64,000 bases of DNA from Octopus vulgaris. Lineage: Eukaryota. Location of the stretch: the NCBI GenBank assembly GCA_951406725.2, contig OX597837.1, positions 21,576,001 to 21,640,000 of the forward strand, given 5' to 3'. Position numbers: made by a program. Positions within the stretch are counted from its first letter, which is position 1, and each line of letters begins with the position of its first letter. Shown piece by piece: positions 46,074 to 55,161 of this stretch.

Positions 46074-49000
46074 CATGTACACATATACATATGTATATAT
46101 ATATCAACAAGGGAGGGTAAAGTTAATTAGTTATTAATCAATTTCATCAAGTGTTCAGTATGTAAAGGGACCATTATTATTTTGAGTAAACAATGTTAGA
46201 GGGAAAAAAATTCTCTAAGTAGTGGAAGAGGCTAAAAAACTTTATTGGCTGCTATTTCTAGAAAGTTTAGTATGTGGCAAAGTAATTTATTTTATTTTCC
46301 TAAGCCCTAATTATATAATATTTTATACATACATACACATACATAAGCACATACATTTACACATACATATGCATATACATATATACACATATACATACAA
46401 ACACATATACACATATACACACACACACACATACAAGCACATACATATATATATACATATATATACACATATATACCTTGACCACTCCCCCAAGTATGAT
46501 ATTTTGCGCTATGCCTACCCCCAAAAAGTCCCCCACCACCACTCCTCTAAATGTATAAATGCTAATACAATTCTTGTTAAATAGCTTCCTGAAGATTTCT
46601 CTTGAATGAAACAGTACTAGTCCTGTAGAAGCTCCTTCTATATAATAAATATATATATATACATATATACGACAGGCTTCTTTCAGTTTCCGTCTACCAA
46701 ATCCACTCACAAGGCTTTGGTCGGCCTGAGGCTATAGTAGAAGATACTTGCCCAAGGTGCCACGCAGTGGGACTGAACCTGGAACCATGTGGTTGGTAAA
46801 CAAGCTACTTACCACACAGCCACCCTGCGCCTATCTTGAACATTTAAAGAAATTTAACATAGACATTCTTCAGAAGTATGAAAGTTAGCCGTTTGCAAAT
46901 AGCATTTTCAACTGTTACAAGTAGTGTTTTAAAAAGAAGTTGTATTAACAGGTTCAATGAAGTCGCTTGGGGGTGGGCCAAATGGCTTCATTTCATTTAT
47001 CATTTTATCTGATTCACCCTTTCCATCCATTTTTTTTTTTTGCTTTCTGTACCCACCATGTGCTGTCCCCTCTGGGTTAGGTCCCATGTGGTTAATAAAG
47101 AAAGAGAGTTCCTTGTCTTGTTTCTCTAAAGGACTCCCAGCATGCAGTTTTGCTCTATCGTGTTAACGCTGGCCTTTCTTCAAGGTGCTTCTTACTGTCT
47201 GCTGGTGCCAAATACTCAGGTAACTGGATTGATGCATCCCTGTGGTTAATATTGGTGGTCTACTTCGTGTCTCTATTGCCCTCCGAGTGATTGCTGATGT
47301 ATGCATGGGTTTGATTTGTCATTGTGTCAGGCTCCTCGACTCCACAGGCCTCCATGGCTTTTCTTGCCACCTGAATGCTGGTCACTTCACACGTCATTTG
47401 AACTCAGAATGAAATGGCAGACGAAATACCACTAAGCAATTCGCCCTGCATGCTAACGTTTATGCCAGCCTGCCTTATATATATATATATATATATATCA
47501 TGTGAAATAGAAAGATGAATAATCTTGTAGTAGATTAATCAAAAGTTTAACCGATACCTTAGTAGCAAAAATCACAGCAGTAAAACAGCACGGTTGGAGG
47601 TACAACCATATGGTGTTGCAACCGTGCGTTGGTGCGGATAATTGAAATTAGAACATTATTGGTGAATTGAAGAAATGGAGCTGAACGCAGATTGAACAGA
47701 AATCGTTTTATTTCATTCTACACGTGTTTCGAAAGGCACAAATTACCAAAATCCGATGGAATAATGGGACCATATTGTGTCTTTCTCTTCAGGAAGAAAA
47801 TAGGAAATCCGTTGGAAAAACAAAAACAGAACAGAGGCGGAGCAAAAACAAATCGAACTATGCTCCTAAGAGCCCATGGCGAAACTGTTTATCAGTGTAT
47901 GTTGAGAACCGGTGGCTGAAGAATTCAACGGGTCAGGCATCGGTCAATCATGTGGATGAGGGGGCGTAGATGTTCTTTGTGACCGAGAATAAAGTTCTAA
48001 CTATTTAAGGAATATTGGATGTTTTATAAGGGGCGAGAAAAAATCTACTTAGAGACGTGTGTGTGTGTATACTGTTCTATATACGTGTGTGTTGGCGTAG
48101 GGGTAGAAAACATTTTTTGTGTACGTGTGTGCGTTTGATCGTTCGGCTGTCAGTGGCTACTGCCGTGATGACCGTTGGGTGGCAGAAAAAAATATATATC
48201 ATGTTTTATGTGTGTGTGTGTTCTCATTTAAGCCTGCCTTGTCAAGGAAACCCCCGCTGTGAAAAAACCAAGCCCCGTTTGTCTTACAGGAGTAATTCCC
48301 CTTGCAGTGGTTAATCGTAGATATCTTAAAGGCTATTTCAGAATTTGTTACCAAGGGCTATGGGTGCCGGTATTATTTATAAACGCTATTTAAAAGCCAG
48401 ATAAGTGTAACGCCGCCAATGGGGGCATCGAAAAGCCGACTGTAAAAGCCCGTTTACCATCCGGCCTCTAGCAAACAAAATATGGAAGAGTTCGGAGACA
48501 CAAAGGTTGCACTGCCTTCTGCCCCTATCAAATGGGAGGGCCACCGACAAAATTGACCATTCCAGCCTGTAGCTTAAGTTCGTATCCTTCAGTCGCCATA
48601 TTAGCTTACTGAGTCCCGTGGTCTGGCGCTTGTTCATGTCCCGAAAAGTTGCGTAATGGTTGGAGACACGCAAAGACAATCTTGAGGATGAGGCCCCTAC
48701 ATAAGTGAAGACATCTGAGTCCGTGTAAACCTTGCATTGGTAGACGGCGTTTTTGATCTTGGAGTTCGCCGACGTGAATCTAATTCTGCTAGGATTAGTT
48801 TCTGAAATTAGAACTGCGTTCCTGTCACTATATTCGTTCCGAGACCTGCAGCCGCTTACTACTCTATTTTCCACTACGTCACTATTAACTATAGGAATAA
48901 CCCCTGATTCTCCACTATCTATCAAAGTGCTGTCATTGCTACTGCCCGTGGTGCTGCTATTGCGGGAAATGATGCTGGGGATGCTATTGGGGCTCTCTAC

Positions 49001-52000
49001 CCTACTCCCATTGTTACCGTCAACCACAACACCCCTATTTATAACTATACCCCTAGTGGGTACTCCCTGGCTGGAGCTGAGATTATGTGTCACTGTACTG
49101 GCTCTCATATCATTATTACTACTATAATTATTCCTACTGAGCATTAAACCGGGAGCGGAAGAGGCTGTGCCTCCGGAAAAAGGTGATAGGGTCTTAGTAA
49201 GTAGCCTATTATTATGGGAGGCGATTATCTGGGCGAGGTTTTTAGTGTTGGAGAAAGCTATCCTAACTTTATGCGAGTTAACCGTGGAGTAATATTTGGA
49301 ATTTCTGGGGAAGTTATTGGCGATGGCTTGTCTAAACATGAGGGGGAGGTTAGTTCTAATCTGCTTACCAAAGGGGATTACAAACCATATATGCTTATTC
49401 CTATCAGTGTGGTGGATCGGGACGCCAGCTCTCGCATTCGGGTGGGTGATTCTCGGATGAATGACGGGTCTTGGGTTAGTGTAAGACCTCCCGGACCGAT
49501 AATTATCCTTGTTCGCTAAATTAAATGCGGGAGCGACTACCCCGGCATCCACCGCGCTCCCGTCCTTACTTAAAATGTTAATGTTATTATATACGGCCCT
49601 ATCCTGATGACCGAATGATGGCATCGGAAGGGCCGGATCAATATAAATTACCTTCTGCCTATAACCGGCCTTGGATAGTGCGGCGTTATAAAATTCCGCC
49701 TTCTGCATAAAAATATCGGCACTGGCGGACAAGCCAGACAATCTTAGAGAGATGTTTTTAACCAAATTGTCTGTTACGGTTTTGGCATGATTTGAGAAGA
49801 CACTGACATACTTCAAATTAGTGGAAGGCTTATGGTAAGGGCAGTATGAGTCGCTATTAAGGTTAAGTGTAACGTCTAGGAAATTGGCCTTGGTGAGTTC
49901 ATTATCAAAAACTATACTCATGCCCATTCTATTAAAAAACCTAGCTAACCTGCTCTTAGTTTTCTGCACTATTCTGTTCGTGGTGTTTTGCAGGTAAAAC
50001 AGACAATCGTCACGATACAGGCCGCCCGCGATCTCCGGGAATTGGTCGGACAATTCGTAGAGAATATATATTCCGACCAAATCGGCTATCTGCGCACTAT
50101 CCGAACTACCCATAGGCACATCAAATTCATTGGGAGTATCTTTACGGATCCACAACTTATTATCAAACTTAATAAACGATTTCCTGGCAACTAAAATGAT
50201 ATCTATCTCTTCTCTGGTGAGGCCAGCCTTGTTGTGAGCATGCCAGAGGGCCTTATTTAGCACACTAGGGTTAATCGAGGGGTAGAAGCTGGCGATATCA
50301 AACTGAATGAACCTAGTACGGTTCTTATTGGGGATGGAAGAGAACCACTTCACTACCTGCGAGGAGTTGGCCCAGAGGCTGAGCTTCAGCTTGTTTACTA
50401 AACTAGGGATATATTTATCTAAAATGTACTTACTGATTATCCCGATATCAGATCTAGCAGGGCATATGAGTCTTAGCGCTGGGTTGGTGTGGAAGTTCGG
50501 TTTATGGTCCTTCACTATAAATCTGGGTTGCTTAGGGCTAAGCGGCTGAGTTCTCATTTGAATTCGGTGTTTAAATATTATTTCCTTAATTTCCAAGTTT
50601 ACCTTCCTCAGGGTACTCCAATTGGTTTTTCTATAATTTTTCTTGATCTCTTTACCGAGTAAATCTAGGTACTGCTTAATGGGCATCTTGTATGTGTTCC
50701 TGGTCTTGTCGGACTGGACCAGGACTCCGTCCGTTCTATTAATGTCCTTGGTAATTTTATCTAGGTATCTGAGGTGGGCATTTCTCCTGGGTGACTTCCT
50801 GAACTTAATCTTTCTAACTATGTCCCACAAGTCGTCCTCAAACTTCTTCAGTCTTGGGTTAGGTGGCGGCGTATCCAATGTTTTAAAAAGCCGGCCGTAT
50901 TCGGACGATGCTGTTGTCCGGTTCGATTTTAGATCTTCGTTCTCGTGGAAGAAAATGAGCCATCTTATCCGGTTTATGAATGCGTTGGTTTTACAAACCA
51001 ACTCCTTAAGGAAGGCATCCTTTGGTGGTATAGGAATATCCTTAAGGGACGCATCAATCTCGAACAACTCCATTATTGGTATCGGTTAAAGTAGCAGTTT
51101 CTTGACGAAGCGGTATGTATCATGTGAAATAGAAAGATGAATAATCTTGTAGTAGATTAATCAAAAGTTTAACCGATACCTTAGTAGCAAAAATCACAGC
51201 AGTAAAACAGCACGGTTGGAGGTACAACCATATGGTGTTGCAACCGTGCGTTGGTGCGGATAATTGAAATTAGAACATTATTGGTGAATTGAAGAAATGG
51301 AGCTGAACGCAGATTGAACAGAAATCGTTTTATTTCATTCTACACGTGTTTCGAAAGGCACAAATTACCAAAATCCGATGGAATAATGGGACCATATTGT
51401 GTCTTTCTCTTCAGGAAGAAAATAGGAAATCCGTTGGAAAAACAAAAACAGAACAGAGGCGGAGCAAAAACAAATCGAACTATGCTCCTAAGAGCCCATG
51501 GCGAAACTGTTTATCAGTGTATGTTGAGAACCGGTGGCTGAAGAATTCAACGGGTCAGGCATCGGTCAATCATGTGGGTGAGGGGGCGTAGATGTTCTTT
51601 GTGACCGAGAATAAAGTTCTAACTATTTAAGGAATATTGGATGTTTTATAAGGGGCGAGAAAAAATCTACTTAGAGACGTGTGTGTGTGTATACTGTTCT
51701 ATATACGTGTGTGTTGGCGTAGGGGTAGAAAACATTTTTTGTGTACGTGTGTGCGTTTGATCGTTCGGCTGTCAGTGGCTACTGCCGTGATGACCGTTGG
51801 GTGGCAGAAAAAAATATATATCATGTTTTATGTGTGTGTGTGTTCTCATTTAAGCCTGCCTTGTCAAGGAAACCCCCGCTGTGAAAAAACCAAGCCCCGT
51901 TTGTCTTACAGGAGTAATTCCCCTTGCAGTGGTTAATCGTAGATATCTTAAAGGCTATTTCAGAATTTGTTACCAAGGGCTATGGGTGCCGGTATTATTT

Positions 52001-55000: not shown

Positions 55001-55127
55001 ACACAATATGGTCCCATTATTCCATCGGATTTTGGTAATTTGTGCCTTTCGAAACACGTGTAGAATGAAATAAAACGATTTCTGTTCAATCTGCGTTCAG
55101 CTCCATTTCTTCAATTCACCAATAATG

Positions 55128-55161
<34 letters not shown>

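What the first reader, a model, noticed from the sequence alone, without database searches (positions are those of the whole stretch)
47499..55129. Very young, intact, potentially active PLE in tandem plus inverted configuration
Seen: an uninterrupted 895-aa RT/GIY-YIG ORF, with an upstream 5'-truncated copy that encodes the identical protein. The three pseudo-LTR copies differ only by one visible substitution (ggatgag vs gggtgag near 47956/51578) and a few homopolymer lengths. CpGs are abundant, and (TA)n flanks both ends. Known: a partial tandem with an inverted 5' pseudo-LTR is the typical PLE insertion structure, and the upstream pseudo-LTR supplies the promoter and leader for the downstream ORF. 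Inference: a candidate source element, probably polymorphic in the population, lying ~9 kb upstream of SETD4 on the same strand.
Basis: partly seen in the sequence, partly recalled or inferred. Interest (0 to 1): 0.72.

Follow-up and report, generated by a model that had tools for sequence, protein, structure and literature searches.

The report
Young Hydra-type Penelope retrotransposon in octopus

Summary
On the minus strand lie a full unit (47499-51113, 895-aa ORF), a 5'-truncated tandem unit (51121-54510) and an inverted fragment (54511-55129), with (TA)n on both sides. The two units differ by one real substitution in 3390 bp. CpG o/e is 0.86 against 0.45 in the rest of the window.

It is a Penelope-like element (PLE). 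The model's best PDB matches are telomerase RTs. The C-terminus has GIY-YIG motifs and a weak GIY-YIG fold signal. A hammerhead ribozyme motif lies in every pLTR copy; a hand-made descriptor finds it, Rfam does not.

The clade guess is wrong. DKT, RW, no CCHH, CxxC/CxH around E and N, and the (TA)n target match Hydra as described by Craig et al. 2021, not Nematis.

Unusual points:
- Three of the four linker zinc-finger cysteines are lost.
- The linker carries a roughly 120-aa low-complexity insert.
- The unit is 3.6 kb long.

An exon 8.9 kb downstream is 100% identical to Octopus vulgaris SETD4-like. Recently active PLEs in O. vulgaris and an octopus Hydra family are already published. Activity, copy number and polymorphism could not be tested.

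The parts
47476..47498 (.). (TA)11.5 microsatellite flanking the element's 3' end; part of the target site
   Evidence: TRF; sequence read
47499..51113 (-). Full-length unit A, 3615 bp: about 40-nt 5' UTR (51113-51074), ORF, 887-nt 3' UTR
   Evidence: BLAST of the unit against the window; junctions read
48386..51073 (-). 895-aa ORF (stop included). N-terminal RW and DKT motifs, RT core with YRDD, disordered linkers 488-557 and 632-754, C-terminal GIY-YIG nuclease at about 772-887
47499..48385 (-). 3' UTR of unit A, the 'pseudo-LTR' sequence; carries the hammerhead motif
47716..47795 (-). Type-I hammerhead ribozyme motif: helix I, CUGAAGA, long helix II, GAA, palindromic helix III ACACGUGU; predicted cleavage after A47719
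   Evidence: own descriptor; sequence read; not found by Rfam
51121..54510 (-). Unit B: 5'-truncated tandem copy, 3390 bp, lacking the first 225 bp of the unit; frame open and identical for residues 63-895
51114..51120 (-). Tandem junction: TACATA-type sequence on the minus strand between the 3' end of unit B and the 5' end of unit A. It differs by one base from the TATATA at the genomic flank.
   Evidence: mismatch 47495/51117
51338..51417 (-). Hammerhead motif of unit B, identical to that of unit A
54511..55129 (+). Inverted fragment, equal to unit positions 47652-48270 in opposite orientation. It is truncated at both ends and carries a third hammerhead copy at 54986-55065 (+).
55129..55160 (.). 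(TA)16 microsatellite flanking the 5' side of the complex
   Evidence: TRF; sequence read

Best explanation
A single, very recent retrotransposition event placed a Hydra-clade Penelope-like element into a (TA)n microsatellite at the tail of a SINE-like repeat. The site is 8.9 kb upstream of the SETD4-like gene, in a genome that is Octopus vulgaris or a very close relative.

Inferred from what is published on PLEs, not shown here:
- The element's GIY-YIG nuclease nicks the TA repeat and the telomerase-like RT primes cDNA synthesis on the nick.
- Synthesis ran through one whole unit (A), continued onto a second template copy or round (B) and stopped 225 nt short of its 5' end.
- A strand or template switch then added the inverted 619-bp piece.
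- The 887-nt 3' UTR therefore also lies in front of the complete ORF, as a pseudo-LTR. There it can supply upstream transcription signals.
- It also places two sense hammerhead motifs 3622 nt apart. These could pair through their palindromic helix III and cut a unit-length RNA out of a tandem transcript.

Shown here: the anatomy, the near-identity of the copies, the RT and nuclease folds and motifs, the hammerhead motif, the (TA)n target and the host gene.

Not shown: transcription, ribozyme cleavage, protein activity, and mobility today.
For: Anatomy and youth:
- one internal substitution in 3390 bp, identical ORFs, (TA)n on both sides.
- CpG o/e is 0.86 against 0.45 elsewhere in the window.

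RT:
- The AlphaFold model has mean pLDDT 78.6.
- Its four best PDB matches are telomerase catalytic subunits; the best is 6zdq_A at E 1.7e-9.
- Y353-R354-D355-D356 and D259 are invariant in 46 of 46 aligned sequences.

Nuclease:
- Y778, Y791, G793, R802, H806, E861 and N874 are invariant.
- The C-terminal model has pLDDT 86.6.
- 12 of its first 13 listed PDB matches are GIY-YIG nucleases: T4 EndoII, Hpy188I, I-TevI and UvrC.
- The nearest Atlas clusters carry GIY-YIG, RVT_1, HTH_animal and DUF8422.

Hydra features:
- They are as described in PMC8557442, section 'Hydra', and were seen.
- That paper's supplement lists Hydra-1_Obim from Octopus bimaculoides with a (TA)n preference and a hammerhead near its 3' end.

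Hammerhead:
- 8 sites in the window pass the descriptor, against a mean of 0.26 (maximum 2) in 100 dinucleotide shuffles.
- 3 of the 8 are the three pLTR copies, each on the strand that is sense for that copy (units A and B on the minus strand, the inverted piece on the plus strand).
- One of the 8 lies in another PLE of the window.

Host:
- One search gives 100% identity to O. vulgaris SETD4-like; maps that protein onto the window.

Relatives:
- 107 proteins at E<=1e-3 and 8565.
- The nearest named ones are from Octopus sinensis (65%), O. bimaculoides (61%) and Argonauta hians.
Against: - Pfam gave 0 families for the ORF at E<=0.1. Neither phmmer nor the family profile hit any RT or nuclease in the PDB sequences.
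- The GIY-YIG fold matches are individually not significant: the best E is 0.16 and none reaches 1e-3.
- Rfam found no hammerhead at E<=1 over 10 kb, at E<=10 over the pLTR, or at gathering score over the whole window. My first descriptor also found none; it was off by one base and I corrected it after seeing the layout of published Hydra hammerheads. The motif is therefore a descriptor match with an unusually long helix II, and it is untested.
- The minimum-free-energy fold of the isolated region forms helix II but not helix I.
- The protein is the most deviant of 46 rows at conserved columns and lacks 3 of the 4 linker cysteines. It may not be autonomous.
- The unit is 3.6 kb, whereas Hydra elements are described as generally <3 kb.
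- No reference Hydra, Nematis or other clade sequences could be put into a tree here. Clade assignment rests on published motif descriptions only.
Confidence: 0.85

Rival explanations
1. The copy is young but not autonomous. Its protein is impaired (linker zinc finger lost, several conserved positions changed), and the insertion was made in trans by the machinery of another Hydra-type family in the same genome.
For: - The protein differs at 15 of 102 columns that are >=90% conserved. This is the highest count among 46 rows; the others range from 0 to 13.
- The changes include C740S, C760N and C771S in the CxCX5C...C linker, and a cluster at residues 557-607.
- A second Hydra-like family with an intact CNCPDKTTCPLNNNC linker lies in the same window at 21275-25248.
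- No closer relative that covers the C-terminus was found (139 candidates, none at E<=1e-3).
Against: - All 42 invariant columns are kept, including the RT and nuclease catalytic residues.
- The 895-codon frame is open.
- The closest relatives (P0001, P0002, P0110) are also among the more deviant rows, with 10, 7 and 9 departures. Part of the deviation is therefore lineage divergence rather than decay.
- Trans-mobilisation of coding PLE copies is not something I saw documented in the texts read.
Confidence: 0.2
2. The tandem and inverted arrangement is an assembly artefact. A single unit would have been mis-assembled from reads of several dispersed copies or of two haplotypes.
For: - Craig et al. 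note that such PLE structures often cause problems in shotgun assemblies, especially short-read ones.
- The copies are almost identical.
- Two of the differences are homopolymer lengths, a common sequencing-error type.
Against: - The arrangement is exactly the recurrent natural PLE architecture: full copy downstream, 5'-truncated copy upstream, inverted piece at the 5' end.
- The junctions are clean and unique.
- The whole complex sits between two halves of one (TA)n tract.
- The window has no N.
- The units differ at 47956/51578, so they are not a simple duplication of one read set.
- I could not see reads.
Confidence: 0.07
3. The insertion is old, and the copies have been kept alike by gene conversion between the tandem and inverted repeats.
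For: Tandem and inverted repeats within 8 kb are good substrates for conversion. The inverted copy and unit A share the A at 47956 while unit B has G.
Against: - Conversion does not restore CpG. The unit has CpG o/e 0.86 in a window at 0.45.
- The 2688-nt frame is intact.
- The second Hydra-like element in the window, which has a comparable repeat arrangement, has acquired an in-frame stop and a 93.7% palindrome. That shows what age looks like here.
Confidence: 0.05

Closest known systems
Hydra clade of Penelope-like elements (Craig, Yushenova, Rodriguez & Arkhipova 2021, PMC8557442), including Hydra-1_Obim of Octopus bimaculoides
   Same: - Single ORF with a C-terminal GIY-YIG nuclease.
- DKT instead of DKG; RW(K) motif instead of GxKF/Y.
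- No CCHH inside the GIY-YIG core; CxxC and CxH around the catalytic E and N.
- Insertion into (TA)n.
- Hammerhead motif near the 3' end.
- An octopus host is already recorded in the supplement.
   Different: - The unit is 3615 bp, against 'generally <3 kb' and 2507 bp for Hydra-1_Obim.
- The CxCX5C linker finger keeps only one of its four conserved cysteines.
- The linker holds a roughly 120-aa S/N/G/V-rich disordered insert.
- The hammerhead has a 46-nt insert in helix II and lies 220 nt from the 3' end, not about 100 nt.
- A clear pLTR/tandem structure is present here, whereas Hydra-1_Obim is noted as 'no pLTR'.
- I could not compare the sequences themselves.
Nematis clade of PLEs
   Same: C-terminal GIY-YIG nuclease, a linker domain between RT and nuclease, and tandem/inverted pLTR insertions. 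[quoted passage not shown]
   Different: As described, Nematis has the CCHH motif between GIY and YIG, a CX2-5CxxC linker, and the DKG and GxKF/Y motifs. None of these is present here.
Penelope of Drosophila virilis and other canonical PLEs
   Same: - Telomerase-like RT plus GIY-YIG nuclease.
- Partial tandem with an upstream truncated copy forming the pLTR, and optional inverted 5' copies.
- Hammerhead with a short palindromic helix III in the pLTR.
   Different: - No intron is evident.
- The 5' UTR is only about 40 nt.
- The motif set differs (see Nematis above).
- Pfam RVT_1 and GIY-YIG models do not reach E 0.1 on this protein.
Non-LTR retrozymes / hammerhead-bearing tandem repeats (Cervera & de la Pena 2014, PMC4209133; Li, Clavereau & Pollet 2026, bioRxiv 10.64898/2026.07.22.740005)
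   Same: Type-I hammerhead with a weak, palindromic helix III, expected to act as a dimer in tandem transcripts. The 2026 preprint derives retrozymes from PLE pLTRs; I read its abstract and outline only.
   Different: This is the autonomous, coding element, not a short non-coding repeat. A separate short repeat with its own hammerhead motif occurs four times in the window (see noticed in passing).

Membership tests
Penelope-like elements (PLE), endonuclease-containing | Reverse transcriptase of the telomerase-related type with intact catalytic aspartates | tested here: met
   The first four PDB fold matches are telomerase RTs (6zdq_A at E 1.7e-9, then 6zdu_A, 6zd1, 3du5_A). The YRDD and motif-A aspartates are invariant in 46 of 46 rows. 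Sequence-only tools failed.
Penelope-like elements (PLE), endonuclease-containing | GIY-YIG endonuclease fused to the RT | tested here: met
   The motifs VY..(11)..YVG, R802, H806, E861 and N874 are invariant. 12 of the first 13 fold matches of the C-terminal model are GIY-YIG nucleases, but the best E is 0.16. Atlas neighbours carry PF01541 in 26-50% of members. Pfam itself gave no hit.
Penelope-like elements (PLE), endonuclease-containing | Pseudo-LTR architecture: partial tandem with a 5'-truncated upstream copy, often plus an inverted 5' copy | tested here: met
   compared with the published description read.
Penelope-like elements (PLE), endonuclease-containing | Hammerhead ribozyme motif in the pLTR | tested here: met
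   A descriptor match is present in all three pLTR copies, on the sense strand of each copy. 8 sites pass in the window against a mean of 0.26 in 100 shuffles. The motif has the G10.1-C11.1 pair and a palindromic helix III, as in PMC4209133. Rfam did not detect it and cleavage was not tested.
Hydra clade of PLEs | DKG motif changed to DKT; RW(K) motif present; GxKF/Y not conserved | tested here: met
   The protein has SDKTRNTY at residues 121-128 and RIRWLIFF at 35-42. The family consensus is ADKTxNxY and RxRWxAFF.
Hydra clade of PLEs | No CCHH motif within the GIY-YIG core; CxxC and CxH on either side of the catalytic E and N | tested here: met
   The sequence VYQCKVYTDSDVFTYVG has no CC pair. 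CNLCVSE (C855, C858, E861), N874 and CPH (C883, H885) are invariant.
Hydra clade of PLEs | Linker zinc-finger-like motif CxCX5C between RT and nuclease | tested here: not met
   The relatives have CNCRxxxxCPLxGxC. The window protein keeps only C742, with S740, N760 and S771 in place of the other cysteines. The family has the motif; this member has lost it.
Hydra clade of PLEs | Insertion into (TA)n | tested here: met
   (TA)11.5 and (TA)16 flank the complex directly. This is one insertion only.
Hydra clade of PLEs | Phylogenetic placement of the RT with reference Hydra families | not testable with these tools
   Reference consensus sequences (Repbase, the paper's supplement) could not be entered into the tools. 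No tree was built.
Nematis clade of PLEs | CCHH motif with two cysteines between GIY and YIG, plus a CX2-5CxxC linker | tested here: not met
   Both are absent from the window protein. CCHH is also absent from the consensus of its 45 aligned relatives. The definition is as read.

The most novel reading that the evidence does not exclude
This family may be a natural knock-out of the Hydra linker zinc finger that still integrates into (TA)n.

If it moved by its own protein, TA targeting in these elements is not set by the finger, as has been proposed. It would instead be set by pairing between the nicked TA repeat and a UA-type site in the template RNA.

The tandem junction reads TACATA where the genomic flank reads TATATA. 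The element's 'end' also lies 220 nt beyond the hammerhead cleavage site. Both would fit priming at an internal TA-like site of a circular or multimeric, ribozyme-processed RNA, with the partial tandem made by rolling-circle reverse transcription.
Probability: 0.2. Interest if true: 0.55.

Novelty: new member of a known kind. Interest (0 to 1): 0.3.

Why it matters
For genome annotation it matters little. Young PLE insertions in Octopus vulgaris have already been counted: 31 families and 336 'recently active' insertions in Bonar et al. 2026 (PMC13282606, Table 1, read as passages). An octopus Hydra family is already listed by Craig et al. 2021.

The value of this copy is as a clean specimen. 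It shows a complete, essentially undiverged tandem-plus-inverted Hydra insertion with all junctions readable. PLE transposition has no in vitro system, and this specimen bears on three open questions about it:
- How the tandem and inverted copies arise.
- What the hammerhead does.
- What directs insertion into TA repeats.

The lost linker cysteines make it a candidate natural test of the proposed finger-targeting link. It also shows that Pfam and Rfam both miss this clade, so automated pipelines will label such ORFs wrongly. The nearest NCBI relatives are named 'myb-like protein I' and 'GATA zinc finger domain-containing protein'.

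Tried and rejected
- **Pfam.** The ORF gave 0 families at E<=0.1. Eight relatives also gave 0 families at E<=0.01, although the protein database lists precomputed PF26215, PF28514 or PF00078 for several of them. I did not resolve this discrepancy.
- **PDB by sequence.** phmmer with the ORF gave one chance-level hit, a sigma factor at E 0.067. 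The profile of alignment A1 gave one hit at E 0.11, unrelated.
- **Rfam.** No hammerhead or any other ribozyme in 46500-56500 at E<=1. In 47450-48420 at E<=10 there were three chance-level rows, none a ribozyme. The whole window at gathering score gave only a 5S rRNA.
- **Plain pattern.** CTGANGA-N(4-30)-GAAA gave 15 matches in the window. Those inside the element lie in coding sequence, and I rejected them as hammerheads for lack of a helix II.
- **First hammerhead descriptor.** It found 0 in the element. It omitted U16.1 and capped the loops. I rewrote it after reading the column layout of published Hydra hammerheads. The positive result depends on that second, knowledge-guided descriptor.
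- **C-terminal relatives.** A search for shorter proteins matching residues 700-895 scored 139 candidates, none at E<=1e-3. Whether close relatives share the finger loss therefore stays open.
- **Target-site duplication.** None can be read, because both flanks are (TA)n. The 183-bp direct repeats at 46651-46832 and 56382-56564 (94%) are copies of a dispersed repeat with about 20 hits in the window. They are not a duplication made by this insertion.
- **Nematis assignment.** Rejected on motifs.
- **Spliced gene model.** The SETD4-like exons were searched one at a time. I built and searched no joined model.
- **Not used or closed.** Complex prediction and the plasmid, phage and E. coli collections were not used because they do not bear on the question. 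Genome-wide copy number, divergence spectrum and orthologous empty sites stayed unchecked.
- **Supplements.** Those of the bioRxiv preprint were not opened. The supplementary Word file of PMC13282606 was not read, and it may list the PLE families concerned.

Full report
**1. What is in the sequence**

The finding's coordinates are exact. The element's coding strand is the minus strand. From 55160 down to 47476 the order is:

| Part | Coordinates | Note |
|---|---|---|
| (TA)16 | 55129-55160 | flank |
| Inverted fragment | 54511-55129 | reverse complement of unit positions 47652-48270 |
| Unit B | 51121-54510 | 5'-truncated, 3390 bp, lacks the first 225 bp of the unit |
| Junction | 51114-51120 | 7 bp |
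| Unit A | 47499-51113 | complete, 3615 bp |
| (TA)11.5 | 47476-47498 | flank |

- Unit A has a 5' UTR of about 40 nt and an 895-codon ORF (48386-51073).
- Its 3' UTR is 887 nt.
- Units A and B differ at one internal base (47956 A / 51578 G) and at one base in the TA edge (47495/51117).
- Their reading frames are identical over residues 63-895.
- The inverted piece differs by two homopolymer lengths and one edge base.
- No other copy of this family is in the window, and the window has no N.
- CpG observed/expected is 0.86 in the unit and 0.45 elsewhere.

**2. What the ORF encodes**

Standard sequence libraries are blind to it.
- Pfam gave no family at E<=0.1.
- PDB sequence searches gave only chance-level rows.

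Homology searches found a large family.
- 107 proteins reached E<=1e-3 in the word-indexed search.
- 8565 proteins reached E<=1e-3 in the exhaustive search of representatives, 298 of them at E<=1e-30.
- Most are about 700-730 aa and sit on 2.3-3.3-kb contigs.
- The few named ones are from Octopus sinensis (65% identity over residues 383-707), O. bimaculoides (61%), Argonauta hians, and the jellyfish Rhopilema esculentum.
- NCBI names the cephalopod ones 'myb-like' or 'GATA zinc finger' proteins. I infer this is because of their low-complexity linker.

Structure prediction supports an RT and, more weakly, a nuclease.
- An AlphaFold model built on a 46-row alignment has mean pLDDT 78.6, with disordered stretches at 488-557 and 632-754.
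- Its best PDB matches are telomerase catalytic subunits. Ranks 1-4 are telomerases, the best at E 1.7e-9. Bacterial defence RTs, group II intron RTs and LINE-1 ORF2p follow.
- This fits the published sister relation of PLE RTs and telomerase.
- The C-terminal 141 residues model well (pLDDT 86.6).
- No PDB match of that model is significant; the best E is 0.16. Even so, 12 of the first 13 rows are GIY-YIG nucleases.
- The GIY, YIG, R, H, E and N positions are invariant in the alignment.
- Atlas neighbours carry HTH_animal, DUF8422, GIY-YIG and RVT_1.

**3. Which clade**

Craig et al. 2021 (PMC8557442; I read the introduction and the sections on Naiad structure, Hydra, RT/EN evolution, retrotransposition features and motif identification, and searched the supplement) define the Hydra clade by these features:
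- a C-terminal nuclease;
- no CCHH motif;
- DKT instead of DKG;
- an RWK motif instead of GxKF/Y;
- a CxCX5C linker;
- CxxC and CxH around the catalytic E and N;
- (TA)n insertion;
- short length;
- canonical hammerheads.

The alignment consensus of this family matches that description. It shows RxRWxAFF, ADKTxNxY, GLYRDDGL, CNCRxxxxCPLxGxC, VYKA...YIG, CxLCLxE and CRH.

The window protein has all of these except the linker finger. The Nematis features (CCHH, CX2-5CxxC, DKG, GxKF/Y) are absent.

I could not build a tree with reference sequences, so the assignment rests on published motif descriptions. The supplement of the same paper already lists Hydra-1_Obim from Octopus bimaculoides: 2507 bp, (TA)n preference, hammerhead at position 2403.

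**4. The hammerhead**

Negative results came first.
- Rfam found none at any threshold tried.
- My first descriptor also found none in the element. It left out U16.1.

After I corrected the descriptor, guided by the column layout of the published Hydra hammerheads, it found a type-I motif in all three pLTR copies:
- 47795-47716 on the minus strand, in unit A;
- 51417-51338 on the minus strand, in unit B;
- 54986-55065 on the plus strand, in the inverted copy.

The motif reads uuc-CUGAAGA-gaaag[46 nt]cuuuc-GAA-ACACGUGU-A-gaa.
- Helix I can extend to eight pairs with one C/U mismatch.
- Helix II extends by five more pairs after an A/C mismatch (the fold forms helix II).
- The first pair of helix II is G-C.
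- Helix III is an 8-nt palindrome.

These are the traits Cervera & de la Pena 2014 describe for PLE hammerheads, which are thought to act as dimers (PMC4209133, passages).

Eight sites in the window pass the descriptor, against a mean of 0.26 and a maximum of 2 in 100 dinucleotide shuffles. All eight lie in repeats: three in this element, one in another PLE, and four in a short dispersed repeat. Cleavage is untested, and the descriptor was tuned with prior knowledge.

**5. How it probably works**

Shown:
- The insertion sits inside one (TA)n tract at the tail of a SINE-like repeat.
- The complete copy is the one next to the 3' flank, and the truncated copy is upstream of it.
- An inverted piece caps the 5' side.

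Inferred from the published PLE model:
- The GIY-YIG nuclease nicks the target and the RT primes on the nick.
- Synthesis runs past the 5' end of one template into a second template copy.
- A strand switch then gives the inverted piece.

Two details of my own reading:
- The tandem junction is TACATA on the minus strand where the genomic flank is TATATA (the 47495/51117 mismatch). This suggests that a UA-type site of the RNA pairs with the nicked TA repeat.
- The element's 3' end lies 220 nt beyond the predicted ribozyme cut. The template for this insertion therefore cannot have been a linear RNA ending at the cut. It was either uncleaved, or multimeric or circular.

Both points are inference.

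In the tandem, the 887-nt 3' UTR of unit B precedes the 40-nt leader and ORF of unit A. It is therefore the only element-borne sequence that could drive transcription of the full ORF. No eukaryotic promoter test was available.

A 13-nt perfect complement between the 5' UTR (51081-51093) and the 3' region (47548-47560, equal to 51170-51182) forms a hairpin across the tandem junction. The fold z-score is -3.16, and 1 of 200 shuffles folds as well. Its role is unknown.

**6. How young, and how active**

One substitution in 3390 bp gives d of about 0.0003.

Bonar et al. 2026 quote a calibration of Jukes-Cantor distance 0.09 at 25 My, copy to consensus. If I double it for two diverging copies, the date is of the order of 10^4-10^5 years. 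This is a rough inference. It assumes no gene conversion and that the difference arose after insertion.

The intact frame, the kept catalytic residues and the undecayed CpG agree with youth.

Against full activity, the protein departs from relatives at 15 of 102 columns that are >=90% conserved. This is the most of 46 rows; the others have 0-13. The departures include three of the four linker cysteines and a cluster at 557-607.

Whether this is a lineage trait or decay of this copy cannot be told. No closer relative covering the C-terminus was found, and no eukaryotic genome collection was open to me.

**7. Context**

An exon at 34305-34799 (minus strand) is 100% identical to 'SET domain-containing protein 4-like [Octopus vulgaris]'. 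It belongs to the SETD3/LSMT family by PDB sequence search (E 9e-6).

That protein maps in seven pieces from 38556 down to 26963 on the minus strand. The element's 3' end is therefore 8.9 kb upstream of the first coding exon, on the same strand. Exons were searched singly, and I made no joined spliced model.

On this evidence the window is from O. vulgaris or a very close relative.

**8. Novelty and verdict**

The kind is known: PLEs, the Hydra clade, an octopus Hydra family, and (TA)n targeting. 'Recently active' PLE insertions in O. vulgaris have been counted at 31 families and 336 insertions.

This is a new, well-preserved member with three departures:
- the linker finger is lost;
- the linker is long and disordered, and the 3' UTR is long, making the unit 3.6 kb;
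- the hammerhead has an unusually long helix II, which Rfam misses.

It is a good specimen rather than a surprise, and I score interest at 0.3. The boldest reading left open is that TA targeting does not need the finger and that the tandem was copied from a multimeric or circular RNA. It would be worth testing, and I give it about 0.2.

Noticed in passing
window 21275-25248, minus strand: A second, different Hydra-like PLE, 33% identical to the 895-aa protein over residues 20-866. Its frame is split by one in-frame stop into 23630-24082 and 21275-23626. An extra upstream nuclease fragment at 24799-25248 keeps an intact CNCPDKTTCPLNNNC linker. There is also a 93.7% palindrome at 24088-24649 and a TA/CA microsatellite at its 3' side (about 21500-21580). 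It looks like an older tandem/inverted insertion, and no hammerhead passed my descriptor there.
   Followed up: partly
window 17615-19575, minus strand: Open frames with motifs I recall as typical of canonical PLEs (LSKGLKF and FYGIHKIHK; the labels are recalled, not tested). A hammerhead descriptor match lies at 19575-19498: gcgg-CUGAAGA-...-GAA-ACAUAUGU-A-ccgc. Pfam gave nothing for these frames.
   Followed up: partly
window 15893-15943 (-), 25861-25911 (+), 43818-43868 (-), 46583-46633 (+): Four copies of a short dispersed repeat, each holding a compact hammerhead motif: 6-bp helix I, CUGAUGA or CUGAAGA, 3-bp helix II, and a 4-bp helix III whose loop contains CUAG. They may be retrozyme-like or SINE-like non-autonomous partners of PLEs. 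One copy lies 0.9 kb from the studied element.
   Followed up: partly
window 26222-26340, minus strand: A full-length 5S rRNA match (103.6 bits, E 1.3e-21). It lies between the 3' end of the SETD4-like gene and the second PLE. It could be a gene, a pseudogene or a 5S-derived SINE head.
   Followed up: no
window 51081-51093 and 51170-51182 (also 47548-47560): A 13-nt perfect inverted complement between the 5' UTR and the 3' terminal region of the unit. In the tandem it forms a hairpin that spans the unit junction (MFE z-score -3.16).
   Followed up: partly
window 26963-38556, minus strand: A SETD4-like gene in seven tblastn pieces. The exon at 34305-34799 is 100% identical to the Octopus vulgaris protein. 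Several introns hold dispersed repeats.
   Followed up: partly
window 10206-10592, plus strand: An exon-like frame matching the C-terminal end of Pfam DNA_pol_B (E 1.4e-7). It is probably part of a family B DNA polymerase gene in the left part of the window.
   Followed up: no
window 44000-46300: A roughly 2-kb low-GC (0.25-0.29), strongly C-over-G-skewed tract of degenerate (TA)n/(CA)n/(CATA)n microsatellite. It gives long spurious ORFs rich in Y, I, H and T.
   Followed up: no
window 47396-47469 and 55175-55328: Both flanks of the insertion are parts of one dispersed SINE-like repeat family, with other copies at about 15057-15214 and 27664-27825. The (TA)n target appears to be the tail of one copy, followed directly by the next copy.
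   Followed up: partly
proteins P0001, P0002, P0003, P0044, P0069 (relatives, not in the window): The protein database lists precomputed Pfam domains (PF26215, PF28514, PF00078) for these proteins.
   Followed up: no
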